64,000 nucleotides of DNA from Escherichia phage W22. Position numbers and translations under genes: made by a program. The stretch lies in the sequence record PV159336; one strand, given 5' to 3'. The notes under the pieces are model-generated. The model had not been told where the DNA came from. It was given only the letters and a program-made list of their open reading frames with translations, and did not search any database. Shown piece by piece: positions 7,964 through 21,854 of the stretch. The first letter of the stretch is position 1; the number at the start of each line of letters is the position of its first letter.

Positions 7964-8686
7964 TTAAGCAATGATTGCTGCGATATTAGGTTTAACAAAG
8001 GTAGATGGTTTCATAATTTTACCTTTGTCATCAAAGAATACGTACACCTTTTGAACTTCGTTATATACAGCATGTACCCCAGTATAAGAACCTTCTGCAC
8101 GATCTTTGCTTCGCATCTCGATAGCATCACATTCTTTTTCAAGAGCTTCAATAATATCCTTAGTTTCCCAAATAGCCAGGAGTTGCTTTTTGGTAGGATA
8201 CTTGGACTCATTGCTATTCAACACTTCACGCATAACCTTCTTCTCGTTATAAACAGAACGCACCAAAGTATCTCGTGCCATACGTGTAAGTGTAAGAGAC
8301 ATTAGGGCAAATTGCAAGTCATTTTCTACCATTTTATCAAATTCAATGATAACATCGTAGATGTTTTCTGCCAGAACATCTCCTGTCGGCATTTCCAGAG
8401 CTTTATCAACACCTTCTTTACCAAAGAACATAAACGCCAGGTAGGATGCTACCACAAAAATATCTGCTGCTGCATCAAGTAATTCAACGTGATCATTTTC
8501 CTGTGCTGCTGCTTGGAACTCTTTTAGTTCTTCTCGTACAAAAGAAAGTTGAGCTTCAAACATCTCTTGAGTAAATTCTGGGGTTACGCCACCACGTGCC
8601 TTAGCATTCCAAGCAACAATTTGATCGGCAGCTTTGATAAAGAAGCTATTGTCCACTTTTACTTGTTTGAAAAAATTCTCGATCAT
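7964..8686 (-). CDS. MazG-like nucleoside triphosphate pyrophosphohydrolase
   Basis: 240 aa; EELKEFQAAAQENDHVELLDAAADIF matches the MazG E..E...E..D metal-binding helix pattern. Confidence 0.5.
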   Translation of the reverse strand: MIENFFKQVKVDNSFFIKAADQIVAWNAKARGGVTPEFTQEMFEAQLSFVREELKEFQAAAQENDHVELLDAAADIFVVASYLAFMFFGKEGVDKALEMPTGDVLAENIYDVIIEFDKMVENDLQFALMSLTLTRMARDTLVRSVYNEKKVMREVLNSNESKYPTKKQLLAIWETKDIIEALEKECDAIEMRSKDRAEGSYTGVHAVYNEVQKVYVFFDDKGKIMKPSTFVKPNIAAIIA

Positions 8687-8884
8687 TGTTTCTCCTTATT
8701 TAAAATATTGTTCTAACAAAACACTAATGCGAACTACCGATTCGCCCATATACGCCCCAGCACAGAGGAAAACAACAAATCTACAAAAATTGCAGTACCA
8801 TTTGTTCACTGGAAACGAGGCTAACATTATAATTGCAATAGCAATTAACATCATAAGAACTGTTACTAATACCATATTTACCTC

Positions 8885-10000
8885 TTACTCTGCTGGTTCC
8901 CAAGTACCTGGAATCATCTTACGTACACGTACCCCAACAGGCTTGGTAGGAATACCTTCGTCTGAAAATTCTTCGTACTCAATTTCAACAAATTGACCAA
9001 TAAGTGTCAAAGCATTTTCTTCTTTACGATAGTTAATGGTTTCATCTGAATCCTTACGCATCAGGAATTCGACTACTTTACCATTTTCCATCTCGCCTGT
9101 CAATACCCCGTCACCATTTTTATCACGCTTTGCACTTACCACCTTAACTTCAAGCGTCTGCCGTGGTTTACGTTTAATAACATCATAAGAACGTTTATCA
9201 AACTCGTAAACACCTTGTGCATTACGATACACCACACCTTCCGCTTTCTCACGCAGAGCTTTTGCATAGAATTCATCAAACTGCTCTTGGTTTTCAATGT
9301 ACTCTGTATGTACTACACAAATAAGTTCGTCTAAACCTTTATCTTGAACAACTTCTTTTAGAGCAGCCAAAACTTCAACCCTCTTCTCAAATGGTACAGA
9401 TGGCACAGGAACATCATATACATAGTATTTAAGAAGCGGAGTGTTAGCATTATGCTTTTTCCACGCACTATTAATTTGTTGAAGGCTAAGAACACCCAAA
9501 CCAGCAAAAACTTCACCATCAAGAGGATGACCAACTACTTCTTTAATGAAGGTTGGAATTTCTTTCCAGTGAGGTGGAAGTTTATATACTTCCCCAGCTT
9601 TAGATAAGCATTCACCTTGCATGTTAATCATTGAACGTAGACCATTCAATTTATACTGTGCATAACCTGGGAACAAAACACGATCAGCATAATCTTTATA
9701 ATCCTGACATTTCATGGGTGTGGAAGGAACATGGTTTTCAGCTTCCTCTTTTGTTTTATAATACCCATTCTTAAGTTGCTTTGTCCATTTGGCAAGAGCT
9801 TCTATTTCAGCTTGTTCTTCTGCTGTTGTTTCATTTGAGCGACCAATATTTTTAGGTTCTGCTGTATAAGATTTGCTAGTAATCTTTCCACCTAATTGAC
9901 CATGAGCAACAGTTACAACACTACCTTCGGTATAGACTGACCACTGTTTAATTTTACCTGTAGAAGTTTTACCATACAATGTAGGATTAGTTTGTTTCAT
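8885..10000 (-). CDS. ATP-dependent DNA ligase
   Basis: Nucleotidyltransferase motifs KLNGLR (I), LDGEVF (III), EGVVYR (IV), VIKRK (V) plus C-terminal OB-like region; start trimmed to ATG 9998-10000 with GGAGG RBS. Confidence 0.65.
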   Translation of the reverse strand: MKQTNPTLYGKTSTGKIKQWSVYTEGSVVTVAHGQLGGKITSKSYTAEPKNIGRSNETTAEEQAEIEALAKWTKQLKNGYYKTKEEAENHVPSTPMKCQDYKDYADRVLFPGYAQYKLNGLRSMINMQGECLSKAGEVYKLPPHWKEIPTFIKEVVGHPLDGEVFAGLGVLSLQQINSAWKKHNANTPLLKYYVYDVPVPSVPFEKRVEVLAALKEVVQDKGLDELICVVHTEYIENQEQFDEFYAKALREKAEGVVYRNAQGVYEFDKRSYDVIKRKPRQTLEVKVVSAKRDKNGDGVLTGEMENGKVVEFLMRKDSDETINYRKEENALTLIGQFVEIEYEEFSDEGIPTKPVGVRVRKMIPGTWEPAE

Positions 10001-10190
10001 CTTTAACCTCCAGTTGCGAAAGAACCCATTTAGCCATTTCAATTTCACCGTGTAGTCTGCCTAGTTCATAGGCATCATCAATATTACCACCAGTGTAATC
10101 ATCCACCATAAAGTAAGGATCTTCACTACTGTTAGGTGCGTTTGCAATTCTCGTTAGTTCTTCAATAAATGTCATAGTTACCCTTACCAA
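9987..10190 (-). CDS. hypothetical protein (67 aa)
   Basis: ORF track. Confidence 0.35.
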   Translation of the reverse strand: MVRVTMTFIEELTRIANAPNSSEDPYFMVDDYTGGNIDDAYELGRLHGEIEMAKWVLSQLEVKDETN

Positions 10191-10408
10191 TTATACACAA
10201 GAGTTTGAATCTCTTCCATCAAGTCTTCAAGATCTGTATCAACGTATTCAGAAGATGTTGCCATAAAGTATGTAATCATTGTGAACCCTTCCGAAGAAAG
10301 GGCATCAAGGATATCATTAAACATATCTTCCATTTCAGTATTCTCACCAAATGAGAATAACATTTGTTGATCTTCGCTTACACCTTTAACATAGATAGCT
10401 GTACTCAT
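10184..10408 (-). CDS. hypothetical acidic protein (74 aa)
   Basis: ORF track. Confidence 0.35.
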   Translation of the reverse strand: MSTAIYVKGVSEDQQMLFSFGENTEMEDMFNDILDALSSEGFTMITYFMATSSEYVDTDLEDLMEEIQTLVYNW

Positions 10409-10411
10409 ATA

Positions 10412-10732
10412 TTAATCCTTAAGACGTTCATTTAAATCTGCAATAACATCACCTAAATCTTCACATTCCAGTGTTAACTCTGAAACTTGTCCACTCAAAT
10501 AACAAACTTCTTCATTTAAATCTGAAATAATGTTTTCTAATGAATCTACTTGGTCATCATATGAACGTTTTGTTTCTTCAAGTTCTTCTGTAAGATCATT
10601 AATCAAACGGAGCAAAGATAAGATATAGCCGTCTCCTGTCTCGTTCCTCCACTCACTTCCGTAGCGATAAATAATAATTTCACCATTATCGACTACTGTA
10701 AAATACTTACCTTCACCAGAATAAATTTCCAT
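10412..10732 (-). CDS. hypothetical protein (106 aa)
   Basis: ORF track; acidic C-terminal half. Confidence 0.4.
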   Translation of the reverse strand: MEIYSGEGKYFTVVDNGEIIIYRYGSEWRNETGDGYILSLLRLINDLTEELEETKRSYDDQVDSLENIISDLNEEVCYLSGQVSELTLECEDLGDVIADLNERLKD

Positions 10733-10741
10733 ACACTCTCC

Positions 10742-11146
10742 TTATTGTAGCTTAAGTGAACTGCGAAGACGTTTCTCTTGCTGATCACGAATATGTTGTG
10801 GAACCTCATGAATTGAGTCGTTACCGTGCCTATTTTCAACAACTAAAGAGATAACTTGATAACCAAACTCTTCAGCAAGAGTAAAATAAGGTTTAAGTTC
10901 TTTCTCTGTGGTTGAAGTGTTAGAGACAATAATCTTTTTAATATTAGATGCCATAGCATCACGAACAATACTCTGACACCATGCGTGTGCTTTACCTACA
11001 TTCTCTGGCTTCCAATCGTAAACACCACTTTCTGTGTAATGATATTGATCTGCCTCACAGATAGGCCAATAACCTTCAGAAATAATTTCTGCTACTGTAG
11101 ATTTACCTGCACCTGAAACACCACGTAAGATGATAAGTTGTTTCAT
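10742..11146 (-). CDS. P-loop kinase, candidate polynucleotide 5'-kinase
   Basis: 134 aa; Walker A GVSGAGKST at residues 9-17; directly abuts the ligase-like gene. Confidence 0.5.
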   Translation of the reverse strand: MKQLIILRGVSGAGKSTVAEIISEGYWPICEADQYHYTESGVYDWKPENVGKAHAWCQSIVRDAMASNIKKIIVSNTSTTEKELKPYFTLAEEFGYQVISLVVENRHGNDSIHEVPQHIRDQQEKRLRSSLKLQ

Positions 11147-12079
11147 TTAGCCTCCAAAGAAGTTTTCTATTTCTTTACGTCGCTCTTGTGGATCTAAAGC
11201 AGCCCATTGAGTCTTAGTAAAGTTGTTTCGAAGCCATTCTAGCAAAGTATAATATTCTTCGTCAACAATTTGTTTAGCATTTTTTGGGTTGTCCCAAATC
11301 ATATCCCACTTCTTATTGCCACCACGCATAAGGAATTTCTTAGCAAGATAGTATGGTGACTTAATCTTTAACAGCAAGTTAAACGGATAGTTTGTTTCAC
11401 GAACAACAAACCCTTCGTGCTTACAATGTTTAGACATTTCAACAACATCTGAAAATTTAATCATCGGATAAACTTCAGGACGTTTAAATTTTGTAATAGA
11501 TGCAATCCCATCAAGCACACCTTCGGGTAGCATGAAACTTGTCCCATCAGGATTTTGAATCCTTGCTCCAATTAAGTATGCGCCTGGTTCTTCTTCAACA
11601 ATATGTGGATCAGAAGGATCACAGATTTCAAAAAGGAAAGTTGCTTTTGCACTTTCTGTCCACTTAATGAAATATTCTATGTCATCACACTCGGAAACAA
11701 TATGGTTCTTGGCAAGAATTGCAAAATCTGACTCTAGGCTCCCTGTTGTTGATACAATAAGTTGCCCTTTGTACACACCTACAGATGCCATAAAACCGTT
11801 TACTTTACGGACAGCATCTACAAGCTGGTCTGCTGGAAGATCTGTACCATTCTCAAAACGATTAAAGATTTTAGTAAAAGGCCAAATAACAACATTGTCT
11901 TCTGAGTCAACAACCAACCCACGACAATCTAGAAGGCGTTTGTCTACGTCCCACAAGTTATCCCAGAATACATTGTTTTTGTATTTAAGTACAGCAAGAC
12001 CAGCATACTCTCCAGATTTAACTTCTTTTTTATGCACTAAACCTTTTGCAATCAGGTCATCACAATTGAACTTAGCCAC
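11147..12079 (-). CDS. putative ATP-dependent RNA ligase (nucleotidyltransferase superfamily)
   Basis: 310 aa; candidate motif I KVNG (lysine nucleotidyltransferase), EGFVVRE (IV), LKIKSP (V); flanked with 0-1 nt gaps by kinase and phosphoesterase. Confidence 0.5.
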   Translation of the reverse strand: MAKFNCDDLIAKGLVHKKEVKSGEYAGLAVLKYKNNVFWDNLWDVDKRLLDCRGLVVDSEDNVVIWPFTKIFNRFENGTDLPADQLVDAVRKVNGFMASVGVYKGQLIVSTTGSLESDFAILAKNHIVSECDDIEYFIKWTESAKATFLFEICDPSDPHIVEEEPGAYLIGARIQNPDGTSFMLPEGVLDGIASITKFKRPEVYPMIKFSDVVEMSKHCKHEGFVVRETNYPFNLLLKIKSPYYLAKKFLMRGGNKKWDMIWDNPKNAKQIVDEEYYTLLEWLRNNFTKTQWAALDPQERRKEIENFFGG

Positions 12080-12080
12080 C

Positions 12081-12632
12081 TTAATCTCCTTTGATTATCT
12101 TATGATGGTCTACAACAACAATATCACGTTTATCCATAATAGAGATGATTTCGTCAAAATGCAAGATTTTTCCGTGTGCGTCCCAACCAACATCCAACAT
12201 TTTCCCATACAAATGATCAGGGAATGATCCGTGAGAGTGCCCGTGTAGCATGATTGATCCATGCCCTTGTTTATTCCAGGCAGCCATAGGGTAATGACTT
12301 AAGACGAAGAACAGTTTCTGATATTTCACTTCGTCATAATACACAACCTCACCATATTCTGCAAGCACTTCTCGGTGTTTGCTGTAATCATGGTTCCCAA
12401 CACAGTAAGTGATATCACCTTGAAGACGTGAAGCAATTTTACGGGTATCTTCTTCAGTCCCGAAACAGAAGTCCCCAAGATGGTACATCTTTACTCCTGG
12501 TGTTGTGGCACATTTATTCCATGCCTCGATCAGTGCTTCTGTCATATGCTCCATATCTTCCCACGGGCGATATTCAGGAGCAAACTCTCGGATACGTTTG
12601 TGCATAAAATGCAAATCACTTGTAATAAACAT
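12081..12632 (-). CDS. calcineurin-like metallophosphoesterase, candidate 2',3'-phosphatase
   Basis: 183 aa; DLHF, GDF..G, GNHD, GHSH metallophosphatase signature motifs. Confidence 0.7.
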   Translation of the reverse strand: MFITSDLHFMHKRIREFAPEYRPWEDMEHMTEALIEAWNKCATTPGVKMYHLGDFCFGTEEDTRKIASRLQGDITYCVGNHDYSKHREVLAEYGEVVYYDEVKYQKLFFVLSHYPMAAWNKQGHGSIMLHGHSHGSFPDHLYGKMLDVGWDAHGKILHFDEIISIMDKRDIVVVDHHKIIKGD

Positions 12633-12994
12633 TAGTATAATCCCTCGCTGAATAGTTCACTGTCGTGACCATTTCTTTCATAGTTAATTTGTTTGGCGTT
12701 ATCTGCAATGATATAAGCATCTTTGCGACTCCACCAGTTATAATACTGATCAATAAACCCTTGATTATCAGGTAAGCAAAACAGTTTATCAATCAATCCT
12801 GCATCTTTTAAAACATTAAGTTGTGCAGATAGTACAGGATTTGCATGCCTAACACAAGGAATAATTAACTCTTCGCCATTGTTGAGAATATACTTATTCG
12901 CAGCGCAGACTATAACACGTTGAGCATAGTGATCCTCACCAATCCAAGTAAGAGGTTGGTAACAAATATCATGTTGATTAGTAGCGCACATCAA
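12632..12994 (-). CDS. hypothetical protein (120 aa)
   Basis: ORF track; overlaps phosphoesterase start by 1 nt. Confidence 0.4.
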   Translation of the reverse strand: MMCATNQHDICYQPLTWIGEDHYAQRVIVCAANKYILNNGEELIIPCVRHANPVLSAQLNVLKDAGLIDKLFCLPDNQGFIDQYYNWWSRKDAYIIADNAKQINYERNGHDSELFSEGLY

Positions 12995-13139
12995 TTTTCT
13001 CCGTACTCTTTTAATCTATCAGCGAAAAAACTGTAATCAGGAAGTAAAAGATCATTACTCGTATCGTTACAGTTTTCTTCCTCTTTATAGATAAAACGCC
13101 CTTCATCCTCTTCTTGCTCTGACCAAACTGAATAATGCA
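12990..13139 (-). CDS. small hypothetical acidic protein (49 aa)
   Basis: Manual ORF (MHYSVWSEQEEDEG...) not in track; stop overlaps the next start as ATGA. Confidence 0.3.
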
Positions 13140-13149
13140 TAATACCTAC

Positions 13150-13524
13150 TTAATAGTTAACACGTTTAATTTCAACACCATAGGATGAAATAAAATTTTC
13201 CTTAGCTAACATATATTTACCAGCAGCAGAAGGATTTGATGTATGAACATAGATAGTTTTAAGAGCATCCCATTCACCAGCGTACAACATACATTCTACG
13301 TCTAAGAACGCATGATATCCTTCTTGATCTTCCCCAAGATCATTATCGAAGTGTATCTCTGAGATATTATTGAAATTATCTTCATCTGAAACAAAAGATA
13401 ACCAATCCTCAAAAGATTTTAACCAAATGGCATCCTCATAACCATAATCTTTAGGATCTCTTAAATCGTCTAACCAAAGAATTTTAGCCACTATCAACCC
13501 CCTTCCTGTTTCTCTTCTTTCCAA
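13150..13524 (-). CDS. hypothetical protein (124 aa)
   Basis: ORF track. Confidence 0.4.
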   Translation of the reverse strand: MERRETGRGLIVAKILWLDDLRDPKDYGYEDAIWLKSFEDWLSFVSDEDNFNNISEIHFDNDLGEDQEGYHAFLDVECMLYAGEWDALKTIYVHTSNPSAAGKYMLAKENFISSYGVEIKRVNY

Positions 13525-15117: not shown

Positions 15118-15248
15118 TATTCCCTCCTGTATGGCTCTGTAACGAGCTAATAGCACCTAAGATATGCAATCACCTTACCTCACAGTAAAACTCGTTACAA
15201 TCGTTTTTAGGAGGTTTAGGTTGTACTTAAAAATAATCTAAAAAGGTG

Positions 15249-15277
15249 TTGACAAACGCAAAAAAGTATGCTACCCT
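15249..15277 (+). promoter_or_regulatory. sigma70-like promoter (TTGACA, 17 nt spacer, TGn-TACCCT)
   Basis: Consensus -35 hexamer with extended -10-like element in the divergent control region. Confidence 0.35.
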
Positions 15278-15459
15278 AACCCCCGAAAAACGCCGAGCGC
15301 AGCGAGGGGGGTGTTATCTAATCTTGTGATACATGATCTAACAGACAACTGAGTAGTCTACATATAGCACTATGTTATGTCTATAATACTAACATACATG
15401 CTCTATACTAACAATAGATTATTTATTAATTTTATTATTAATTAAATAATAAATATCTA

Positions 15460-15527: not shown

Positions 15528-16421
15528 ATGAAAGTTAGTATTCTGCATGGTGTTGACTGTTATGTTACTGATGTAGACGTTAAAGTGTTTACATTCTCTG
15601 GTGGAGAACAACATGTTCAATTAGATACGAATCTATCAGGTTTCAATCATGCTACAGACAGAATCTTACTCACTTTAGAAGTAAGATCTGCTAAAGACTT
15701 GATGACTTTGGTTATGACTAAGAATGCATTGGACAATATGCTATATCATAAACCATATTGTGTTGATTTACTCATGTTGTATGTGCCGTATGCACGACAA
15801 GACAGAGTGTGTGAGCCTGGGGAAGCATTCGGAGTTAAAGCATTTGCTTCTATAATTAATTCATTAAATTTCTCACGTGTTATCGTTGCTGATCCACATA
15901 GTGATGTTACTCCAGCAGTGTTTGACAGACTCTGTGTAATACCTCAAGAAGAGATTGCTTACGAAACTTTAAAGTGGAAGTTACGTATGGAGAATTTTGC
16001 TCTTGTTAGCCCTGATGGTGGTGCTCTTAAGAAAATATTTAAATTATCTAAGAAAATGTCTTTAGATGTGTTCTGTGCAGAGAAGGTTAGAGATACCGCA
16101 ACAGGTGCTATTGTTCGTACAGACATTTCTGTACAGGATTTCAATAAGCGTAACCTGATGATCGTAGATGATATCTGTGATGGTGGTAGAACTTTTATCG
16201 AATTGGCTAAAGTGCTACGTGCTCGTAACGCAGGTAAGATTGAGCTATATGTTACACACGGTATCTTTTCTAAAGGTCTTAAAGAGTTGAGTGAGCACTT
16301 TGACTGCATTCATTCTCTTAATGTGTGGGAAGATAACATCCAAGAAGATTCCGGTGTTCTTGTTAAGAATCAGTCAGATTTGCAACAACAAATTGTATCT
16401 CCATACGTGTGGAATTTTTAA
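15528..16421 (+). CDS. prs: ribose-phosphate pyrophosphokinase (PRPP synthetase)-like; possibly ADP-ribose pyrophosphokinase of an NAD+ reconstitution pathway
   Basis: 297 aa; PRPP-binding loop LMIVDDICDGGRTF; AGGAG RBS. Confidence 0.7.
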   Translation: MKVSILHGVDCYVTDVDVKVFTFSGGEQHVQLDTNLSGFNHATDRILLTLEVRSAKDLMTLVMTKNALDNMLYHKPYCVDLLMLYVPYARQDRVCEPGEAFGVKAFASIINSLNFSRVIVADPHSDVTPAVFDRLCVIPQEEIAYETLKWKLRMENFALVSPDGGALKKIFKLSKKMSLDVFCAEKVRDTATGAIVRTDISVQDFNKRNLMIVDDICDGGRTFIELAKVLRARNAGKIELYVTHGIFSKGLKELSEHFDCIHSLNVWEDNIQEDSGVLVKNQSDLQQQIVSPYVWNF

Positions 16422-16431
16422 ATAACAAGTG

Positions 16432-16460
16432 TTGACAATAGGGAGTATGCTTAGTAAGAT
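16432..16460 (+). promoter_or_regulatory. sigma70-like promoter (TTGACA, 17 nt, TAAGAT)
   Basis: Sequence match upstream of the 16493 start. Confidence 0.45.
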
Positions 16461-16492
16461 ACTCCCACACTAACAAACAAGGAGACATAACT

Positions 16493-18226
16493 ATGAATAT
16501 TTTTGCACCTTTTGCTACTGATTGGTACAAACCTGGTCACAAGCAGATGTACAATCAAAATACAAAACTCATTTTCTCTAATTTAACTCCTCGTAATGAT
16601 AAAAACTTTGCGCACTATGCAGATCGTGAAGCACGTGGTGTGATTGTTTTAGGTATTCGTCGAGCAGTCACTGATGCTCTTGTAACTATGTGGGATAGCT
16701 TCTTTAAAATGTCTCGTAGTGCAGCAGTAAATAAATTTTATCGTATGTCTAAAAATGCATTAGGTGCTTCTGCTCCTTCTGCTGAATGTTGGGGAGAATT
16801 GCACGATTTAGGTTATCTTCCGCTGGAAGTTCGATCTCTGCCAGAAGGTGTTTTGTGTCCTATTGGTGTTCCTGTGTTTACTGTGCATAATACTTTAGAA
16901 AAATTCTTTTGGTTAACTAACTATGTGGAAACACTGTTGTCAGATGAAACTTGGAAGACAATGACTAATGCCACAGCAGCTTTTCAGTATAAGCGTATCG
17001 CTATGGCATATGCGATGGCAACGTGTGATAATATTGATCACGTTAACTTCCAGTGTCATGATTTTAGCCTACGTGGTTTAAGTAATATCGAAGATGGTTA
17101 TAAGAGTGGTATCGCTCATTTAGCATCTTTCACAGGGACAGATAATATTCTGGCTATTGAAACTGTGCATGATTATTATGGTATTGATTATGATCAGTTT
17201 GTTGCAGGTTCTATTCCGGCAACAGAACATTCAGTAGCAACGACTAACATTGGAGCTATTGTTGAAGACCTGAAGAAACATTTCCCACATCTTAAAGATG
17301 ATGTAGATGGTCTTCGTTATGTAGCAGAGAAAGAGTTTCTTCGTCGTTATATTGAAGAAATTGTTCCAGAAGGTTTTTGTTCATATGTAGCAGATTCCTA
17401 TGATTACTGGGCTGTCTTGACTCGCATTCTGGTAGAATTGAAAGAATCCATTATGTCACGAAATGGTCGTCTTGTTATTCGTCCAGATTCAGGAGATCCG
17501 GTTAAAGTTGTTGCAGGATACAATGTTGAATCTTTTGATAACTATGAAGACCTTTTAAATAATGGTATTGCGACAGCCACTGAAGTAGTTCATTTGGCTG
17601 ATGTTAATAAGTATTACAATGTTCTTCAGGATTGCAGTGTTGCTGACTGTATTGATGAAACTTATGAGATTCCTTATTGTGAAGCAGTAGGTTCTATTCA
17701 AATCCTTTGGGAAGTGTTTGGTGGTACTATCAACCGAAAAGGCTACAAGGTTCTTGATCAGCATATCGGTATGATTTATGGTGATTCTATTACTGTTGAA
17801 CGAGAACACGAGATCTTACGCCGACTGAAGAAGAAAGGTTTTGCAGCTTCCAATATCGTATTTGGTGTTGGTAGTTATACTTATCAGTTCAATACACGAG
17901 ATACTTTCGGTTTTGCTGTTAAAGCAACAGGTAGTATCATCGGTGAACACGAAATTTTGGTAAGTAAGGAGCCTAAAACTGATCCTGGTAAACGCTCTGC
18001 AAAAGGTTTTATTAAGGTTGTTAAGGATACCAATGGTAATCTGTCTCTTGTAGATAATCTTTCTTTTAAAGATATCCAGGATGAAGACAATGAGTTACAA
18101 GTTATCTTCAAGGATGGTAAGGTTATTACACCACAAGTAGAAGGCCGTGATGAAACATTCACTGATATCCGCAACCGTGTTGACGTAGAGGTTCTTCGTA
18201 CTATGGGAACCATCCAGGTTGACTAA
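16493..18226 (+). CDS. nadV: nicotinamide phosphoribosyltransferase (NadV/NAMPT)-like
   Basis: 577 aa; N-terminal FATDWYKPGHKQMY and overall length typical of the NAMPT family. Confidence 0.7.
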   Translation: MNIFAPFATDWYKPGHKQMYNQNTKLIFSNLTPRNDKNFAHYADREARGVIVLGIRRAVTDALVTMWDSFFKMSRSAAVNKFYRMSKNALGASAPSAECWGELHDLGYLPLEVRSLPEGVLCPIGVPVFTVHNTLEKFFWLTNYVETLLSDETWKTMTNATAAFQYKRIAMAYAMATCDNIDHVNFQCHDFSLRGLSNIEDGYKSGIAHLASFTGTDNILAIETVHDYYGIDYDQFVAGSIPATEHSVATTNIGAIVEDLKKHFPHLKDDVDGLRYVAEKEFLRRYIEEIVPEGFCSYVADSYDYWAVLTRILVELKESIMSRNGRLVIRPDSGDPVKVVAGYNVESFDNYEDLLNNGIATATEVVHLADVNKYYNVLQDCSVADCIDETYEIPYCEAVGSIQILWEVFGGTINRKGYKVLDQHIGMIYGDSITVEREHEILRRLKKKGFAASNIVFGVGSYTYQFNTRDTFGFAVKATGSIIGEHEILVSKEPKTDPGKRSAKGFIKVVKDTNGNLSLVDNLSFKDIQDEDNELQVIFKDGKVITPQVEGRDETFTDIRNRVDVEVLRTMGTIQVD

Positions 18227-18973: not shown

Positions 18974-19049
18974 GGTTCCATAGCTCACTGACGAGAGCGC
19001 ACACCTCATAAGTGTCGAGGGCAGGGATTGTAACCCTGGGGAACCACCA
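18974..19049 (+). tRNA. tRNA, anticodon CAT (Met or Ile2), atypical T-loop
   Basis: Manual fold: acceptor GGTTCC/GGAACC, anticodon loop CTCATAA, CCA encoded. Confidence 0.45.
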
Positions 19050-19080
19050 TTTAAAAGGAGGTGCTATGCATCTCCTATAT

Positions 19081-19166
19081 GCAAGTGTGGTGGAATTGGT
19101 GATACACATTGTGCTTAAAACGCAACGCTTAAATGCTTGAGGGTTCGAATCCCTCCACTTGCACCA
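19081..19166 (+). tRNA. tRNA-Leu (anticodon TAA)
   Basis: Manual fold: acceptor GCAAGTG/CACTTGC, loop CTTAAAA, long variable arm, T-loop GGTTCGAATCC, CCA. Confidence 0.6.
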
Positions 19167-19168
19167 AC

Positions 19169-19273
19169 GCCTAGTAGGGTATTTGGTAATTCCGAGGCCA
19201 TCAAAGCCTGAAAAATATGTTAGACCGCTTTGTCTAACTAAATACGAAATATGGTTCGATTCCATAACTAGGC
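19169..19273 (+). ncRNA. atypical tRNA-like element (about 105 nt; possible UCA anticodon; no CCA)
   Basis: Perfect 7-bp acceptor GCCTAGT/ACTAGGC, T-arm TATGG-TTCGATT-CCATA, anticodon-like hairpin with loop CATCAAA, 7-bp extra arm GTTAGAC/GTCTAAC. Confidence 0.3.
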
Positions 19274-19306
19274 TTCAATTTAAATAATAATTTTAGTAAA
19301 AATATC

Positions 19307-19335
19307 TTGACATTCACTTAGTTTTTTGTTATAGT
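19307..19335 (+). promoter_or_regulatory. sigma70-like promoter (TTGACA, 17 nt, TGt-TATAGT)
   Basis: Near-consensus promoter inside the tRNA cluster. Confidence 0.5.
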
Positions 19336-19345
19336 TACTGTGAAA

Positions 19346-19427
19346 ACGGGGTGTATCTCACCTGACTTCTAATCAGGCGTTAACCGAGTAATTGGAGTAT
19401 GCAGGTTCGAATCCTGTCACCCCGACC
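19346..19427 (+). ncRNA. atypical tRNA-like element (anticodon-like loop CTTCTAA, no recognisable D-arm)
   Basis: Perfect acceptor CGGGGTG/CACCCCG plus ACCA, T-arm GCAGG-TTCGAAT-CCTGT, hairpin CCTGA-CTTCTAA-TCAGG only 7 nt after the acceptor. Confidence 0.35.
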
Positions 19428-19446
19428 AAAAAGTTTTTAAAAACTA

Positions 19447-19475
19447 CTTGACAAGCAAGATAGTTTTATGTTAGA
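19447..19475 (+). promoter_or_regulatory. sigma70-like promoter (TTGACA, 17 nt, TGt-TAGATT)
   Basis: Sequence match inside the tRNA cluster. Confidence 0.45.
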
Positions 19476-19491
19476 TTTAAAGTATGATAAC

Positions 19492-19581
19492 GGGAAGGTA
19501 GGGCGCAGCGGTGCGCAACCAGGTTTGAACCCTGGCCCATTGTAGCGATACGGTGATGGTTCGACTCCATTATCTTCCTCC
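19492..19581 (+). tRNA. tRNA-Ser (anticodon TGA)
   Basis: Manual fold: acceptor GGAAGGT/ATCTTCC, stem CCAGG/CCTGG with loop TTTGAAC, long variable arm, CCA. Confidence 0.55.
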
Positions 19582-19600
19582 AAATTCAACTAGGAGCTTT

Positions 19601-19753
19601 ATGAATTATAAAACTATTGGACAGGTTGTTACCGGAGTTAAGATTGTAGATAATAAAGTTGTTTATGAGTATTCTAATCTTCAACAATCTGAAGATGGTA
19701 AGAATATTCGTATGGTAAAAGCAGAACAAAAAGATTCCGGTTGTTTTGAATAA
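19601..19753 (+). CDS. small hypothetical protein (50 aa)
   Basis: ORF track 19553..19753 overlaps tRNA-Ser; internal ATG after AGGAG RBS chosen. Confidence 0.35.
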   Translation: MNYKTIGQVVTGVKIVDNKVVYEYSNLQQSEDGKNIRMVKAEQKDSGCFE

Positions 19754-19761
19754 TTAAGAAC

Positions 19762-19847
19762 GGTAGATTGGTGAAATGGTAGCCACAACAGTTTGCTAAA
19801 CTGTCGTCGGAAACGGCGTGTAGGTTCAAGTCCTACATCTACCGCCA
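19762..19847 (+). tRNA. tRNA-Ser (anticodon GCT)
   Basis: Manual fold: acceptor GGTAGAT/ATCTACC, stem ACAGT/ACTGT loop TTGCTAA, long variable arm, discriminator G, CCA. Confidence 0.6.
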
Positions 19848-19974
19848 AGTTATCTTTAATGTAGCTTGTAATCTTACTTTAATAGAGTAAACTTTCGGCA
19901 GATGGCCCCCCACCATCTTACCGATATCCCATAGTCAAGTGCCGCAAACACTGGCTATTTTAAAGATAATTTAT

Positions 19975-20050
19975 ACATCGTTAGCTTAGTTGGTAGAGCA
20001 AGGGGCTTTTAACTCCAAGGTCGAAGGTTCGAATCCTTCACGATGTACCA
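19975..20050 (+). tRNA. tRNA-Lys (anticodon TTT)
   Basis: Manual fold: acceptor ACATCGT/ACGATGT, D-arm GCTTAGTTGGTAGAGC, loop CTTTTAA, T-loop GGTTCGAATCC, CCA. Confidence 0.6.
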
Positions 20051-20055
20051 AACAC

Positions 20056-20142
20056 GTAGGTATCGCATAGCGGCAATTGCTGGAGACTGTAAATCTCTTG
20101 CCCTTCGGGGCTTCGTTGGTTCGAGTCCAACTACCTGCACCA
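20056..20142 (+). tRNA. tRNA-Tyr (anticodon GTA)
   Basis: Manual fold: acceptor GTAGGTA/TACCTGC, stem GGAGA/TCTCT loop CTGTAAA, long variable arm, CCA. Confidence 0.6.
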
Positions 20143-20149
20143 AATTAAA

Positions 20150-20234
20150 GATGGATTGGCCTAGTGGTTGGGCGACGGACTGTTAATCCGTGAACGAAAG
20201 TTCTAGCAAGGTTCAAATCCTTGATCCATCGCCA
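20150..20234 (+). tRNA. tRNA with Asn anticodon GTT on a class-II (long variable arm) scaffold
   Basis: Manual fold: acceptor GATGGAT/ATCCATC, stem ACGGA/TCCGT loop CTGTTAA, 15-nt variable arm GAAC-GAAA-GTTC, discriminator G, CCA. Confidence 0.45.
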
Positions 20235-20241
20235 GAATTAT

Positions 20242-20318
20242 GGACTTGTAGAGTTAAGGTAAACCTCCAGTCGCCAAGAGGCTTCTGGAATTGCAGGTAT
20301 CGAATCCTGCCGAGTCCA
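20242..20318 (+). ncRNA. atypical tRNA-like element (anticodon unresolved, 8-nt T-loop, no CCA)
   Basis: 7-bp acceptor GGACTTG/CGAGTCC and T-arm GCAGG-TATCGAAT-CCTGC; no clean anticodon arm found. Confidence 0.3.
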
Positions 20319-20324
20319 AGTATT

Positions 20325-20399
20325 GCTCCTATCGTATAACGGCTATTACGGTTGCCTTGTAAGCAACTTATCAGGGTTCGAGTCCTTGTGGGAGCACCA
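20325..20399 (+). tRNA. tRNA-Thr (anticodon TGT)
   Basis: Manual fold: acceptor GCTCCTA/TGGGAGC, stem GTTGC/GCAAC loop CTTGTAA, CCA. Confidence 0.6.
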
Positions 20400-20416
20400 A
20401 TTTTAACTCTAAAGGA

Positions 20417-20746
20417 GTGTATGTGACAGAAAAAGAGTTAGAGAAATATTTTAATATCAATGTTTTCGATGGTTTTGATGATATTGAAGATGTTGAAAGA
20501 TATTATGAAGTAGAGTTAGATAAGGATAACATTGTAATTCTTTCTGCCACTTATGATTGTGCATATTATGAAGGTGAATCTCACGTTTATTTTTATGATA
20601 TGAAAACATCTTTGTTTTATGAAGTACACGCATATCATTGTTCTTGTTATGGCTTAGAAGGTCAGTGGGAACCTGAAGAAATAGGTGATTTGGACTTTAC
20701 TATTGCATATCTAAACAGACGTGGTGCATCTACTATTTTAAAATAA
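20417..20746 (+). CDS. hypothetical Cys/His-containing protein inside the tRNA cluster
   Basis: ORF track (109 aa); GTG start region after AAGGAG RBS; motif HAYHCSCYG. Confidence 0.45.
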   Translation: MYVTEKELEKYFNINVFDGFDDIEDVERYYEVELDKDNIVILSATYDCAYYEGESHVYFYDMKTSLFYEVHAYHCSCYGLEGQWEPEEIGDLDFTIAYLNRRGASTILK

Positions 20747-20760
20747 ATATCAAAAGCCTC

Positions 20761-20789
20761 TTGACAAAGGGGCTAATAATATGTTAGAG
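20761..20789 (+). promoter_or_regulatory. sigma70-like promoter (TTGACA, 17 nt, TGt-TAGAGT)
   Basis: Sequence match upstream of tRNA-Gly. Confidence 0.45.
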
Positions 20790-20801
20790 TAATATTGTTA
20801 A

Positions 20802-20876
20802 GCGGGTATAGTGTTAATGGTAGCATATGAGGTTTCCACCCTCCAGGTGCAGGTTCAAGTCCTGTTACTCGCTCCA
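20802..20876 (+). tRNA. tRNA-Gly (anticodon TCC)
   Basis: Manual fold: acceptor GCGGGTA/TACTCGC, loop TTTCCAC, T-loop GGTTCAAGTCC, CCA. Confidence 0.55.
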
Positions 20877-20975
20877 AGATTATTTAAATGGAATCGCTAG
20901 AGAAAATTTCTCTTTTCGCTCATGGTTTTCTCCTTCAAACTCTAGCGGTTCTTTTTAAGTGATTTTTAGTTTTAT

Positions 20976-21050
20976 TGGAGATTAGCCTAGTGGGAAGGCA
21001 ACGGCCTTTGAAGTCGTGATGACTAGGTTCGATTCCTAGATCTCCAGCCA
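20976..21050 (+). tRNA. tRNA-Gln (anticodon TTG)
   Basis: Manual fold: acceptor TGGAGAT/ATCTCCA, stem ACGGC/GTCGT loop CTTTGAA, T-loop GGTTCGATTCC, CCA. Confidence 0.55.
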
Positions 21051-21057
21051 GTATTTA

Positions 21058-21133
21058 CAGTGCGTAGCGCAGTTGGTAGCGTGGGAGCTTTGGATGCTTC
21101 GGGTCGCAGGTTCGAGTCCTGCCGCACTGACCA
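21058..21133 (+). tRNA. tRNA-Pro (anticodon TGG)
   Basis: Manual fold: acceptor CAGTGCG/CGCACTG, D-arm GCGCAGTTGGTAGCG, loop TTTGGAT, T-loop GGTTCGAGTCC, CCA. Confidence 0.55.
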
Positions 21134-21138
21134 AATTT

Positions 21139-21213
21139 GCAGAGATAGCTGAGACGGATTAGTGCTACCCTGAAAAGGTAGAAAGGATGGATCGTTACCA
21201 TCTCTCTGCACCA
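21139..21213 (+). tRNA. tRNA-Phe (anticodon GAA), atypical T-loop
   Basis: Manual fold: acceptor GCAGAGA/TCTCTGC, stem CTACC/GGTAG loop CTGAAAA, CCA. Confidence 0.5.
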
Positions 21214-21289
21214 AATAACACCATCCAAGGAGTAGACTTGGTTAACTGTCAATAGCACATTGAGGCTTCTTACAGTGGTGTATTTTTAT

Positions 21290-21374
21290 GGCTAAGTGGT
21301 GGAATGGTATACACGATACGCTTAGAACGTATTGCCCCAAGGGATTGTGAGTTCGAGTCTCACCTTAGCTACCA
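21290..21374 (+). tRNA. tRNA-Leu (anticodon TAG)
   Basis: Manual fold: acceptor GGCTAAG/CTTAGCT, stem ATACG/CGTAT loop CTTAGAA, long variable arm, CCA. Confidence 0.6.
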
Positions 21375-21462
21375 TATCTAAGAGATATCATAGGGTTTGC
21401 AACGGATATCTACCGTCCTGTTAAGGATACCACGCCAAGACGGGTTATAAAGGGTTAGCCAT

Positions 21463-21538
21463 TGATAGTGTGAAGCTGGCGTTTCGAGTGCTTTCATAAG
21501 GCATTGCGAGAAGAGTTCGATTCTCTTACTATCAACCA
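21463..21538 (+). tRNA. tRNA, anticodon CAT (Met, fMet or Ile2)
   Basis: Manual fold, 76 nt: acceptor TGATAGT/ACTATCA, loop TTCATAA, T-arm AAGAG-TTCGATT-CTCTT, CCA. Confidence 0.55.
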
Positions 21539-21553
21539 AATTACTACAGATTG

Positions 21554-21632
21554 CGCGGGATAGAGGAGTCTGGTCGTCCTCGCCAGTTTCATATGCTGGA
21601 GATCGTAGGTTCAAATCCTACTCCCGCCTCCA
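21554..21632 (+). tRNA. tRNA, anticodon CAT (Met, fMet or Ile2)
   Basis: Manual fold: D-stem GAGG/CCTC, stem CCAGT/GCTGG loop TTCATAT, T-loop GGTTCAAATCC, CCA; one acceptor mismatch. Confidence 0.45.
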
Positions 21633-21697
21633 ATAAATACCTCCCTTCTGGTGTAATGATTAAGTTACATTGACACTTCAAGGAACTTATAGCCGGG

Positions 21698-21773
21698 TAG
21701 ATTTAAAAGAGTATGGTACTCAATATGGCTCCAAACCATAGATCAAGGGGTTCGATTCCTCACCTTGCTGCCA
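21698..21773 (+). ncRNA. tRNA-Trp-like element (anticodon-like loop CTCCAAA) with unpaired acceptor
   Basis: Perfect stem TATGG/CCATA with loop CTCCAAA, T-arm with TTCGATT loop, 3' CCA; no complementary 5' acceptor strand found. Confidence 0.3.
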
Positions 21774-21778
21774 ATTAT

Positions 21779-21854
21779 TGTGGTATCGTACAGATGGTTA
21801 GTACACTCGACCGATAATCGAGAAACAACGGTTCGACTCCGTTTACCACGACCA
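21779..21854 (+). tRNA. tRNA-Ile (anticodon GAT)
   Basis: Manual fold: acceptor TGTGGTA/TACCACG, D-arm GTACAGATGGTTAGTAC, stem CTCGA/TCGAG loop CCGATAA, T-loop GGTTCGACTCC, CCA. Confidence 0.55.

What the first reader, a model, noticed from the sequence alone, without database searches (positions are those of the whole stretch)
10742..12632. Three-gene RNA end-healing and sealing operon (P-loop kinase, RNA-ligase-like enzyme, metallophosphoesterase)
Three tightly packed same-strand genes with 0-1 nt gaps encode a Walker-A kinase (GVSGAGKST), a lysine nucleotidyltransferase with candidate ligase motifs (KVNG, EGFVVRE, LKIKSP) and a calcineurin-like phosphoesterase (GDF, GNHD, GHSH). This is the enzymatic toolkit of T4 Pnk plus Rnl and bacterial Pnkp, but split into separate polypeptides. 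With a separate DNA ligase nearby and a large tRNA cluster, it suggests dedicated repair of tRNAs cut by host anticodon nucleases.
Basis: partly seen in the sequence, partly recalled or inferred. Interest (0 to 1): 0.7.

Follow-up and report, generated by a model that had tools for sequence, protein, structure and literature searches.

The report
Phage RNA-repair gene cassette, already annotated
Three adjacent genes of this E. coli phage encode a phosphoesterase, a T4-like RNA ligase and a small polynucleotide-kinase-like enzyme that most likely mend cut RNA such as tRNA, but the cassette is already annotated in public phage genomes and described in a 2022 comparative-genomics paper.

Summary
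Three minus-strand genes sit head to tail: a metallophosphoesterase (12632..12081), a 310-aa ligase (12079..11147) and a 134-aa P-loop kinase (11146..10742), with gaps of 1 and 0 nt.

- **Kinase:** its family profile matches RNA 5'-OH kinases best (Pnkp1, Mucorales RNA kinase, T4 Pnk, CthPnkp). Natural fusions of this kinase to this ligase, to HD phosphoesterases and to a CNPase exist.
- **Phosphoesterase:** it has a complete metal site, but its closest structure (aq_1665) has no known function, so its RNA role is inferred from context.
- **Linkage:** in 70 related viral loci (51 ligase clusters), the phosphoesterase lies within 7 kb in 67 and the kinase in 64, in permuted orders.

The window is a Justusliebigvirus-type phage. 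GenBank relatives already carry "RNA ligase/RNA repair", "phosphoesterase" and "ATPase" labels. Iyer et al. 2022 described this neighbourhood in rV5-like phages. No biochemical test was found. Whether sealing needs a 2'-OH or a 2'-PO4 end is open.

The parts
12081..12632 (-). Metallophosphoesterase (183 aa), the first gene of the trio and the putative 2',3'-cyclic / 3'(2')-phosphate end-healing enzyme
   Evidence: ORF. It matches phrog_547 'phosphoesterase' at 4e-55 and Pfam Metallophos_2 at only 2.6e-4, below the cut-off. The family profile hits aq_1665 (1XM7) at 1e-22. The AF2 model has pLDDT 95.7. Foldseek gives 1XM7 at 3e-8, then Mre11/LpxH/MPE nuclease near 1e-4, and lambda phosphatase at only 0.017. 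The metal ligands D6, H8, D54, N80, H81, H113, H132 and H134 are invariant in 62 sequences.
11147..12079 (-). ATP-dependent RNA ligase of the T4 Rnl1 / Trl1 clade (310 aa) with a short C-terminal helical domain (about residues 242-307)
10742..11146 (-). Minimal P-loop kinase (134 aa), the putative RNA 5'-OH polynucleotide kinase
   Evidence: It matches AAA_33 at 1e-9, phrog_2071 at 1e-57 and phrog_505 'polynucleotide kinase' at 6e-9. The profile's best solved-structure hits are Pnkp1 4XRP (1.2e-6), the Mucorales RNA kinase 9D8A (1.4e-5), T4 Pnk (6e-5) and the CthPnkp kinase domain (1e-4). The Walker A motif G9-T17 and D33 are conserved (G12, G14, K15 and D33 invariant; G9 and T17 at >=90%). 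Fusion relatives exist: ligase-kinase P0480, kinase-ligase P0431, HD-kinase, and kinase-CNPase.
13150..13524 (-). cREC (cyclic-phosphate-processing receiver-like) protein, a probable accessory end-healing enzyme in the same array. Its start is ambiguous, because relatives annotate a 113-aa product.
   Evidence: It matches Pfam PF20274 cREC_REC at 3e-14 and phrog_1479 at 2e-31. A cREC gene lies next to the ligase in 10 of 70 related loci. It was predicted to be a 2',3'-cyclic phosphodiesterase linked to RNA ligases in PMC7824862 and PMC9503650.
12632..12994 (-). 120-aa protein of unknown function (phrog_839) whose stop overlaps the MPE start by 1 nt. It is co-transcribed but is not a conserved part of the module.
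   Evidence: No Pfam or solved-structure match was found. It is present in only 3 of 70 related loci.
12991..13140 (-). 49-aa ORF between cREC and phrog_839, of unknown function
   Evidence: It is annotated as a hypothetical protein in relatives.
7964..8686 (-). MazG-like nucleotide pyrophosphohydrolase, a member of the published neighbourhood type
   Evidence: It matches PRA-PH at 3e-7 and phrog_671 at 6e-28. It is present in 13 of 70 loci and is listed by Iyer et al. 2022.
8885..10048 (-). ATP-dependent DNA ligase (context, separate from the RNA ligase). Relatives annotate a start equivalent to about 10000.
   Evidence: It matches PF01068 at 5e-11, phrog_114 at 8.5e-76 and the NCBIfam DNA ligase model at 4e-19. 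A DNA ligase lies within 7 kb of the RNA ligase in 28 of 70 loci.
15528..18226 (+). NAD+ salvage pair (context): ribose-phosphate pyrophosphokinase 15528-16421 and nicotinamide phosphoribosyltransferase 16493-18226
   Evidence: The products are annotated in relatives. NAMPT lies within 7 kb of the ligase in 38 of 70 loci and Prs in 28 of 70.
18974..21854 (+). tRNA gene cluster: candidate substrates, or a parallel 'replace rather than repair' strategy
   Evidence: ARAGORN finds 16 genes, including Lys-UUU, Tyr, Asn, Gln and Thr. Rfam finds 14. tRNA genes lie within 7 kb of the ligase in 22 of 39 sampled related loci.

Best explanation
The trio is a phage RNA end-healing and sealing cassette that works like T4 Pnkp plus Rnl1, but is built from different, separate parts.

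Proposed route:
1. A host ribonuclease, most plausibly an anticodon nuclease or another metal-independent RNase, cuts an RNA. It leaves 2',3'-cyclic-phosphate and 5'-OH ends. This step is inferred.
2. The binuclear-metal phosphoesterase removes the phosphate to give a 3'-OH. The upstream cREC protein may open the cyclic phosphate first. Both roles are inferred from context. The intact active site is shown.
3. The 134-aa P-loop kinase transfers the gamma-phosphate of an NTP to the 5'-OH. D33 would act as general base and K15/S16 would bind the nucleotide. The fold family and residues are shown. The substrate is inferred from its best matches and from fusion proteins.
4. The Rnl1/Trl1-clade ligase is adenylylated on Lys92, activates the 5'-phosphate as AppRNA, and seals the break. 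The catalytic residues and fold are shown. The activity is inferred.

The genes are translated from one long leftward transcript, together with nucleotide-metabolism and DNA-replication genes. This is inferred from the tiny intergenic gaps and the absence of terminator-like sites.
For: - **Kinase:** the four significant solved-structure matches covering at least three-quarters of the profile are RNA/polynucleotide 5'-OH kinases. In a library of 1.84 billion proteins, the same kinase family is fused to this ligase family in both orders (P0480, P0431). It is also fused to HD phosphoesterases (P0403, P0449, P0479) and to a 2',3'-cyclic-nucleotide phosphodiesterase (P0448).
- **MPE:** all metal-binding motifs are invariant and the model is confident.
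- **Linkage:** among 70 IMG/VR loci with a ligase relative (30-99% identity, 51 clusters at 80%), the MPE lies within 7 kb in 67 and the kinase in 64. At least five gene orders occur: kinase-ligase-MPE in 23 clusters, MPE-ligase-kinase in 15, and others. The 148-kb genome of the 99%-identical phage EC.P2 has one copy of each gene.
- **tRNA association:** tRNA genes are nearby in the window and in 22 of 39 sampled loci.
- **Prior prediction:** a published contextual analysis reached the same prediction for rV5-like phages.
Against: - No enzymatic or genetic data were found for any of the three proteins.
- The MPE's nearest structure (aq_1665) has no known function. The MPE is not close to the Pnkp/lambda-phosphatase clade, and its Pfam score is below the cut-off.
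- The kinase lacks the equivalents of T4 Pnk Arg38 (it has His36) and Arg126 at the aligned positions. Its P-loop fold is shared with small-molecule kinases.
- The ligase has Thr112 where T4 Rnl1 has Lys119. Its C-terminal domain is only about 66 aa, against about 120 aa for the T4 tRNA-specificity domain, so tRNA specificity cannot be carried over.
- The loci used for the linkage count were found through the ligase and are phylogenetically related. No formal null model was computed.
Confidence: 0.65

Rival explanations
1. The cassette still repairs RNA, but by a fungal Trl1/Tpt1-like, NAD+-dependent route. cREC or the MPE opens the cyclic phosphate to a 2'-phosphate. The ligase requires that 2'-PO4 to seal. 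A phage sirtuin, acting like KptA/Tpt1, then removes the junction 2'-phosphate using NAD+ supplied by the phage NAMPT/Prs pair. This is the model of Iyer et al. 2022 for rV5-like phages.
Against: At the sequence level the family profile finds T4 Rnl1 but no Trl1 chain at E<=1. The sirtuin is not in the window and sits about 30 kb away in EC.P2. It is absent within 7 kb in 59 of 70 loci, whereas a phosphomonoesterase-capable MPE is nearly always present. The His-Arg-Arg triad could not be tested. NAMPT/Prs may simply counter NAD+-depleting defences.
Confidence: 0.2
2. The kinase and the MPE heal DNA ends (5'-OH, 3'-phosphate) for the neighbouring ATP-dependent DNA ligase during replication or repair. 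On this view the RNA-ligase-like protein is incidental, or acts on DNA/RNA hybrids.
For: A DNA ligase lies 0.7 kb downstream in the window and within 7 kb in 28 of 70 loci. The array also holds exonucleases and DNA-polymerase-associated genes. T4 Pnkp and the HD-Pnk enzymes also act on DNA ends (general knowledge).
Against: The kinase is fused to the RNA ligase family, not to DNA ligases, in natural proteins. Linkage to the RNA ligase (64-67 of 70) is much tighter than to the DNA ligase (28 of 70). That comparison is biased, however, because the loci were selected through the RNA ligase.
Confidence: 0.07
3. The ligase-like protein serves mainly as a tail-fibre attachment factor, like the second activity of T4 gp63/Rnl1. 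The kinase and MPE would then be unrelated nucleotide or NAD-metabolism enzymes, for example a nicotinamide-riboside or nucleotide kinase working with NAMPT/Prs.
For: PHROG 562 is named 'RNA ligase and tail fiber protein attachment catalyst'. Transposon data show that the T4 rnlA N-terminal domain is needed under laboratory conditions. These phages carry many tail fibres. Some records annotate the kinase as 'nucleoside/nucleotide kinase'. NRK1 gives weak hits (E about 0.03).
Against: The adenylyltransferase residues are invariant across the family, which implies selection on ligase chemistry. The gene sits among early nucleotide-metabolism genes, far from the structural genes that start near 23.6 kb on the other strand. 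The kinase's small-molecule-kinase hits cover only the P-loop. The fusion partners are RNA-end enzymes.
Confidence: 0.05

Closest known systems
Phage T4 tRNA repair pathway (Pnkp + Rnl1) against the PrrC anticodon nuclease
   Different: T4 fuses the kinase to a HAD-type phosphatase. Here the kinase stands alone at 134 aa and the phosphatase is a separate metallophosphoesterase. The equivalents of T4 Pnk Arg38 and Arg126 are not conserved in place. The ligase C-terminal domain is about half the size of the T4 tRNA-specificity domain. An extra cREC gene is present.
Predicted sirtuin-centred phage RNA-repair neighbourhood, type 2, of Iyer, Burroughs, Anantharaman & Aravind 2022 (Viruses 14:1977; prototypes Escherichia phage V5 and Proteus phage Mydo)
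   Same: The gene set matches: a T4-like tRNA ligase, cREC, a nucleotide kinase, MazG and a calcineurin-like phosphoesterase.
   Different: In the window the sirtuin slot between the kinase and the DNA ligase holds three small ORFs. The sirtuin homologue lies about 30 kb away in the 99%-identical genome EC.P2. The MPE is directly adjacent to the ligase, and cREC is moved upstream. The published description is itself a prediction without biochemistry.
Bacterial Pnkp/Hen1 and Pnkp1-Rnl-Hen1 RNA repair systems (Clostridium thermocellum; Capnocytophaga gingivalis)
   Same: The enzyme classes are the same: a P-loop kinase, a metallophosphoesterase and an adenylyltransferase ligase. Pnkp1 is the kinase profile's best solved-structure hit (1.2e-6), and the CthPnkp kinase domain also hits (1e-4). 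Pnkp1-Rnl-Hen1 shows that a split arrangement has precedent.
Fungal/plant tRNA ligase Trl1 (ligase-kinase-CPD), including the split Mucorales enzymes
   Different: No 2H cyclic phosphodiesterase is present here. No Trl1 chain was found at the sequence level. The 2'-PO4 requirement and the His-Arg-Arg triad were not established.

Membership tests
Rnl1-type ATP-dependent RNA ligase (T4 Rnl1; Pfam PF09511) | Covalent nucleotidyltransferase motifs I (KxxG with the lysine nucleophile), III, IV and V | tested here: met
   K92-V-N-G95, E151, E222-G223 and K238/K240 align with T4 K99/G102, E159, E227/G228 and K240/K242. They are invariant in 56 homologues. The PF09511 score is 53.3 bits against a cut-off of 28.3. 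PDB entry 5TT6 is titled 'T4 RNA Ligase 1 (K99M)'.
Rnl1-type ATP-dependent RNA ligase (T4 Rnl1; Pfam PF09511) | Additional T4 Rnl1 essential residues Arg54, Lys75, Phe77 and Lys119 (this list is recalled from Wang, Ho & Shuman 2003 and was not re-read here) | tested here: inconclusive
   R53, K70 and F72 are conserved and are invariant or nearly so. Lys119 aligns with an invariant Thr112.
Rnl1-type ATP-dependent RNA ligase (T4 Rnl1; Pfam PF09511) | The Rnl1-specific C-terminal tRNA-recognition domain, which defines the family according to PMC11404444 | tested here: not met
Rnl1-type ATP-dependent RNA ligase (T4 Rnl1; Pfam PF09511) | Fold closer to RNA ligases than to DNA ligases or capping enzymes | tested here: met
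Trl1/Rnl6-type 2'-PO4-dependent tRNA ligase | The His-Arg-Arg triad that binds the terminal 2'-phosphate (CthLIG H227, R334, R337; PMC11404444) | not tested
   No residue-level alignment to a Trl1 structure could be obtained with the tools. A conserved basic patch (K247 >=90%; K248, R252, K257 invariant) follows motif V, but its equivalence to the triad is unproven.
5'-OH polynucleotide kinase (T4 Pnk / Pnkp / Trl1-KIN type P-loop kinases) | A Walker A P-loop plus an Asp general base about 20 residues downstream | tested here: met
   G9-VSGAGKS-T17 is present, and an invariant D33 aligns with T4 Asp35.
5'-OH polynucleotide kinase (T4 Pnk / Pnkp / Trl1-KIN type P-loop kinases) | T4 Pnk Arg38 and Arg126 (phosphate contacts; this list is recalled from Wang, Lima & Shuman 2002) | tested here: not met
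   The aligned positions hold His36 (nearly invariant) and a non-basic residue. The nearest conserved arginine, R106, aligns with T4 Arg122.
5'-OH polynucleotide kinase (T4 Pnk / Pnkp / Trl1-KIN type P-loop kinases) | Closest characterised relatives are polynucleotide kinases rather than nucleotide or small-molecule kinases | tested here: met
   The profile hits Pnkp1 (1.2e-6), Rhizopus RNA kinase (1.4e-5), T4 Pnk (6e-5) and the CthPnkp kinase domain (1e-4). Gluconate kinases match the P-loop only, and adenylate, thymidylate and NR kinases score E >= 0.02. Fusions to an RNA ligase, HD domains and a CNPase exist.
5'-OH polynucleotide kinase (T4 Pnk / Pnkp / Trl1-KIN type P-loop kinases) | Phosphorylation of 5'-OH RNA ends | not testable with these tools
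   This needs an enzyme assay.
Calcineurin-like metallophosphoesterase superfamily | Binuclear metal-site motifs DxH, GD, GNH(D/E), H and GHxH on the MPE fold | tested here: met
   D6/H8, G53-D54, G79-N80-H81-D82, H113 and G131-H132-x-H134 are invariant, except D82 at >=90%, in 62 sequences. The model has pLDDT 95.7, and all Foldseek matches with E<=1e-3 are MPE-superfamily members. The single-sequence Pfam score is 21.5 against a cut-off of 27, but precomputed PF12850/PF00149 hits occur on homologues.
Bacterial Pnkp (kinase-phosphatase-ligase) / Hen1 RNA repair system | One polypeptide carrying a kinase, a lambda-phosphatase-like MPE and an Rnl4-type ligase, with a Hen1 methyltransferase as partner | tested here: not met
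Type-2 sirtuin-linked phage RNA-repair neighbourhood (Iyer et al. 2022) | Co-located T4-like ligase, cREC, nucleotide kinase and MazG, with or without a calcineurin-like phosphoesterase | tested here: met
   All five lie within 7964-13524 on one strand.
Type-2 sirtuin-linked phage RNA-repair neighbourhood (Iyer et al. 2022) | A sirtuin gene coupled to the cluster | tested here: not met
   The window has no SIR2 homologue at E<=10. A homologue (E=6e-100) lies at 24748-25557 of the 99%-identical phage EC.P2, about 30 kb from the cluster. In the probable rV5-like loci it lies between the kinase and the DNA ligase.

The most novel reading that the evidence does not exclude
The cassette could be an NAD+-coupled, Trl1/Tpt1-like repair pathway operating in bacteriophages. 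It would need a new short-C-domain subfamily of the Rnl1/Trl1 ligase clade that requires a 2'-phosphate end. It would also need cREC and/or an aq_1665-type metallophosphoesterase acting as previously uncharacterised RNA cyclic-phosphate-processing enzymes, and a phage sirtuin acting as the RNA 2'-phosphotransferase, fed by phage NAD+ salvage. That would give bacterial viruses the eukaryotic style of tRNA ligation and assign first functions to three orphan enzyme families.
Probability: 0.2. Interest if true: 0.7.

Novelty: already known. Interest (0 to 1): 0.3.

Why it matters
If the prediction holds, this cassette is a widespread alternative to the textbook T4 Pnkp/Rnl1 tRNA-repair pathway. 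I found it in at least 51 distinct ligase clusters of viral contigs and in more than 100 sequenced enterobacterial phages.

It would matter for three reasons:
- It would help explain how large therapeutic-candidate coliphages (rV5-, phi92- and phAPEC8-like) escape RNA-cleaving defences.
- It would supply a very small (134-aa) RNA 5'-kinase and a compact RNA ligase as possible reagents.
- It would give a first function to the aq_1665 metallophosphoesterase clade and to cREC.

None of this is new as a hypothesis. The value left is experimental validation and settling whether sealing uses 2'-OH or 2'-PO4 ends.

Tried and rejected
**Searches that gave nothing useful**
- Single-sequence search of the ligase against solved structures gave only noise. 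A family profile was needed.
- NCBIfam has no model for the ligase or the MPE.
- The promoter scan was no better than shuffled sequence (31 sites against 27.9 +/- 5.6). Operon boundaries therefore rest on gene spacing and the lack of terminator-like sites.
- Six literature searches found no biochemical or genetic study of these proteins. The Bas54 (V5-like) transposon study does not discuss them in the text I searched.
- Burroughs & Aravind 2016 is not held in the library.
- Nothing functional is published on aq_1665/1XM7.
- The 120-aa phrog_839 protein and ten small neighbouring ORFs match no family.

**Identities considered and rejected**
- dNMP, adenylate or thymidylate kinase for the 134-aa protein: only the P-loop matches.
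- Membership of the bacterial Pnkp family: both the ligase and the MPE belong to other clades.
- A sirtuin hidden among the window's ORFs: none was found.

**Left unresolved**
- I could not obtain residue-level superpositions, so the Trl1 2'-phosphate triad was not tested.
Full report
**Observation.**
- The transcription order is a 183-aa metallophosphoesterase (MPE, 12632..12081), a 310-aa ligase-like protein (12079..11147, GTG start) and a 134-aa P-loop kinase (11146..10742).
- One nucleotide separates the MPE stop from the ligase start.
- No nucleotide separates the ligase stop from the kinase ATG, and the two ORFs share a reading frame.
- All three starts have Shine-Dalgarno-like sequences upstream, and every quoted motif is present.
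- The tight packing does not end there. Upstream, the cREC gene (13524..13150), a 49-aa ORF and a 120-aa ORF are joined by gaps of 9, -4 and -1 nt.
- Downstream, three small ORFs and the ATP-dependent DNA ligase follow with gaps of 9 nt or less, or with overlaps.
- No terminator-like hairpin lies on the minus strand between about 15290 and 8745. The promoter scan is uninformative.
- The trio is therefore a block inside a long leftward array, not a self-contained operon.

**Origin of the window.** The 1.9-kb segment is 99.2% identical to Escherichia phage EC.P2 (Stephanstirmvirinae, Justusliebigvirus). At least 80% of it matches in 112 phage records. Many of those records already label the genes "putative RNA ligase/RNA repair", "phosphoesterase" and "ATPase". 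A 73%-identical kinase in Klebsiella phage KP12 is named "3'-phosphatase, 5'-polynucleotide kinase".

**Ligase.**
- *Family.* The protein matches Pfam RNA_lig_T4_1 above its cut-off and PHROG 562, the T4 Rnl1 family.
- *Sequence.* A 56-sequence family profile finds T4 Rnl1 (2C5U, 9DO4) at E about 5e-10. R53, K70, F72, K92, G95, E151, E222, G223, K238 and K240 align with T4 R54, K75, F77, K99, G102, E159, E227, G228, K240 and K242. T4 K119 aligns with an invariant Thr112.
- *Structure.* The AlphaFold model is confident, with pLDDT 91.6.
- *C-terminal region.* The part after motif V is about 66 aa of short helices, roughly half the size of the T4 Rnl1 tRNA-specificity domain.
- *Conclusion.* The protein is a member of the Rnl1/Trl1 clade with its own C-terminal domain. 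It is neither a DNA ligase nor a capping enzyme. Structure alone cannot say whether it needs a 2'-OH end, as T4 does, or a 2'-PO4 end, as Trl1 does.

**Kinase.**
- *Family.* The single sequence gives AAA_33 and PHROG "ATPase", with a weaker "polynucleotide kinase" hit.
- *Solved relatives.* A 55-sequence profile hits RNA/polynucleotide 5'-OH kinases first: Capnocytophaga Pnkp1 (1.2e-6), the Mucorales tRNA-splicing RNA kinase (1.4e-5), T4 Pnk (6e-5) and the Clostridium thermocellum Pnkp kinase domain (1e-4). Nucleotide and nicotinamide-riboside kinases match only the P-loop, at E >= 0.02.
- *Residues.* The Walker A motif and D33 (equivalent to T4 Asp35) are conserved (G12, G14, K15 and D33 invariant). 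T4 Arg38 and Arg126 have no equivalents at the aligned positions, which hold His36 and a non-basic residue, with R106 nearby.
- *Fusions.* An exhaustive profile search of 1.84 billion representative proteins found 9,582 relatives at E<=1e-10, mostly stand-alone proteins of about 135 aa. It also found fusions that speak to function:
  - ligase-kinase (P0480, 444 aa) and kinase-ligase (P0431, 420 aa), both carrying this same ligase family;
  - HD-phosphoesterase-kinase (P0403, P0449, P0479);
  - a protein with two kinase-family domains and a CNPase domain (P0448).

**Phosphoesterase.**
- *Active site.* All the binuclear-metal motifs are invariant in 62 homologues: D6/H8, D54, N80/H81, H113 and H132/H134. 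The model is excellent, with pLDDT 95.7.
- *Relatives.* Its only close solved relative is Aquifex aq_1665 (1XM7; profile E=1e-22, Foldseek 3e-8). That is a structural-genomics protein with no known function and no literature.
- *More distant matches.* Mre11, LpxH and MPE nucleases follow near 1e-4. Lambda phosphatase, the relative of the Pnkp phosphatase domain, scores only E=0.017.
- *Conclusion.* A role in removing 2',3'-cyclic or monoester phosphates from RNA is inferred from context, not from homology.

**Conserved linkage.**
- *Co-occurrence.* A pattern scan of IMG/VR with the ligase alignment returned 70 loci, with 30-99% ligase identity and 51 clusters at 80%. Homologues of the MPE lie within 7 kb of the ligase in 67 loci and homologues of the kinase in 64. 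They lie within 150 nt in 32 and 38 loci respectively.
- *Gene orders.* The orders vary: kinase-ligase-MPE (27 loci, 23 clusters), MPE-ligase-kinase (24 loci, 15 clusters), MPE-ligase-cREC-kinase (6 loci, 3 clusters), cREC-MPE-ligase-kinase (3 loci), one locus with the MPE and kinase inverted, and others.
- *Copy number.* The 148-kb EC.P2 genome has a single copy of each gene.
- *Reading.* Linkage kept through repeated rearrangement, together with the fusion proteins, is the strongest argument that the three act together.
- *Caveat.* The loci were selected through the ligase and are related by descent. I computed no formal null model.
- *Other neighbours.* NAMPT appears in 38 loci, Prs in 28, a DNA ligase in 28, MazG in 13, SIR2 in 11 and cREC in 10. 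tRNA genes lie within 7 kb in 22 of 39 sampled loci.

**Relation to published work.**
- *Earlier proposals.* Iyer et al. 2021 (PMC7824862) defined cREC as a predicted cyclic-phosphate-processing enzyme that is linked in operons to RNA ligases.
- *The matching neighbourhood.* Iyer et al. [quoted passage not shown] They proposed that the sirtuin removes 2'-phosphates, as KptA does.
- *What the window holds.* It contains all of these except the sirtuin.
- *Where the sirtuin is.* In loci that I take to be rV5-like from contig size and gene content, SIR2 (Pfam 3e-22) lies between the kinase and the DNA ligase. In the window that slot holds ORFs of 106, 74 and 67 aa. A SIR2 homologue (E=6e-100) lies about 30 kb away in EC.P2, outside the window.
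- *Assessment.* The finding is a lineage-specific rearrangement of an already described predicted system.
- *Experimental status.* I found no experimental work on it.

**Mechanism.**
- *Best-supported reading (confidence about 0.65).* The cassette repairs RNA in a T4-like way using non-T4 parts:
  1. The MPE clears the 2',3'-phosphate, possibly after cREC opens the cyclic phosphate.
  2. The kinase phosphorylates the 5'-OH.
  3. The ligase, adenylylated on K92, seals the break.
- *Shown versus inferred.* The folds, catalytic residues, linkage and fusions are shown. Every substrate and activity is inferred. So is tRNA as the target, because the T4-type tRNA-recognition domain is absent.
- *Main rival (about 0.2).* The published NAD+-dependent Trl1/Tpt1-like route. 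It is favoured by the near-equal structural similarity to Trl1, the short C-domain with a conserved basic patch, and the frequent company of sirtuin and NAD+ salvage genes. It is disfavoured by the sequence-level preference for T4 Rnl1 and by the near-universal presence of a phosphatase-capable MPE where the sirtuin is usually absent.
- *Minor rivals.* DNA end healing for the adjacent DNA ligase (0.07), and a tail-fibre attachment or NAD-metabolism reading (0.05).

**Verdict.** The novelty is low, because the genes are annotated and the neighbourhood is published as a prediction. The remaining interest lies in biochemical validation and in the 2'-OH versus 2'-PO4 question.

Noticed in passing
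window 15528-18226 (+): An NAD+ salvage pair (ribose-phosphate pyrophosphokinase and nicotinamide phosphoribosyltransferase) is transcribed divergently from the repair array. NAMPT lies within 7 kb of the RNA ligase in 38 of 70 related viral loci and Prs in 28 of 70. This may reflect a functional NAD+ link or only shared 'counter-defence' placement.
   Followed up: partly
window 9987-10732 (-); L005 8724-9500; EC.P2 (PQ631072.1) 24748-25557: The slot between the kinase and the DNA ligase holds a SIR2 gene in what appear to be rV5-like loci. In the window it holds three small ORFs instead (106-aa coiled-coil 'hol-like', 74 aa, 67 aa). The sirtuin homologue of the 99%-identical phage EC.P2 sits about 30 kb away, outside the window.
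   Followed up: yes
window 11144-11149 (ligase stop / kinase start): The ligase stop codon and the kinase ATG abut in the same reading frame. Natural single-polypeptide ligase-kinase (P0480) and kinase-ligase (P0431) proteins exist in metagenomes.
   Followed up: yes
window 12632-12994 (-): A 120-aa protein (phrog_839, unknown function) overlaps the MPE start by 1 nt. Some GenBank records call it an 'anti-restriction nuclease'. It has no Pfam or solved-structure match and is present in only 3 of 70 related loci.
   Followed up: partly
window 18974-21854 (+): The tRNA callers disagree. ARAGORN finds 16 genes and Rfam finds 14. Rfam alone calls 19347-19425, which corresponds by position to a 'tRNA-OTHER' annotated in phage Antha. 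ARAGORN alone calls 18974-19049 (Met), 19493-19582 (Ser-UGA) and 21463-21538 (Met). The set includes Lys-UUU, Tyr, Asn, Gln and Thr, which are typical anticodon-nuclease targets.
   Followed up: partly
window ~15200-15530: The coding strand switches here and the GC skew changes sign from negative to positive. This marks a divergent junction between the leftward replication/nucleotide-metabolism array and the rightward NAD-salvage, tRNA, lysis, terminase and structural genes.
   Followed up: no
window 8687-8884 and 7932-7957: A 198-nt gap between the DNA ligase and MazG holds a terminator-like hairpin (8745-8729, minus strand). A G+C-rich hairpin that scores as terminator-like on both strands follows MazG at 7932-7957. 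These are the only candidate ends of the leftward transcription unit.
   Followed up: no
EC.P2 (PQ631072.1) 30043-30786, outside the window: The closest relative also carries a gene annotated 'serine/threonine-protein phosphatase'. From that name it may be a lambda-type second metallophosphoesterase, the clade used by bacterial Pnkp, but I did not test this. It is not linked to the repair cluster.
   Followed up: no
one search hit list (MG065639, MG065645, MG065656, MG065689): Four records labelled 'Campylobacter phage' with host C. jejuni are 98.7% identical to this E. coli-type phage segment. The host labels look doubtful.
   Followed up: no
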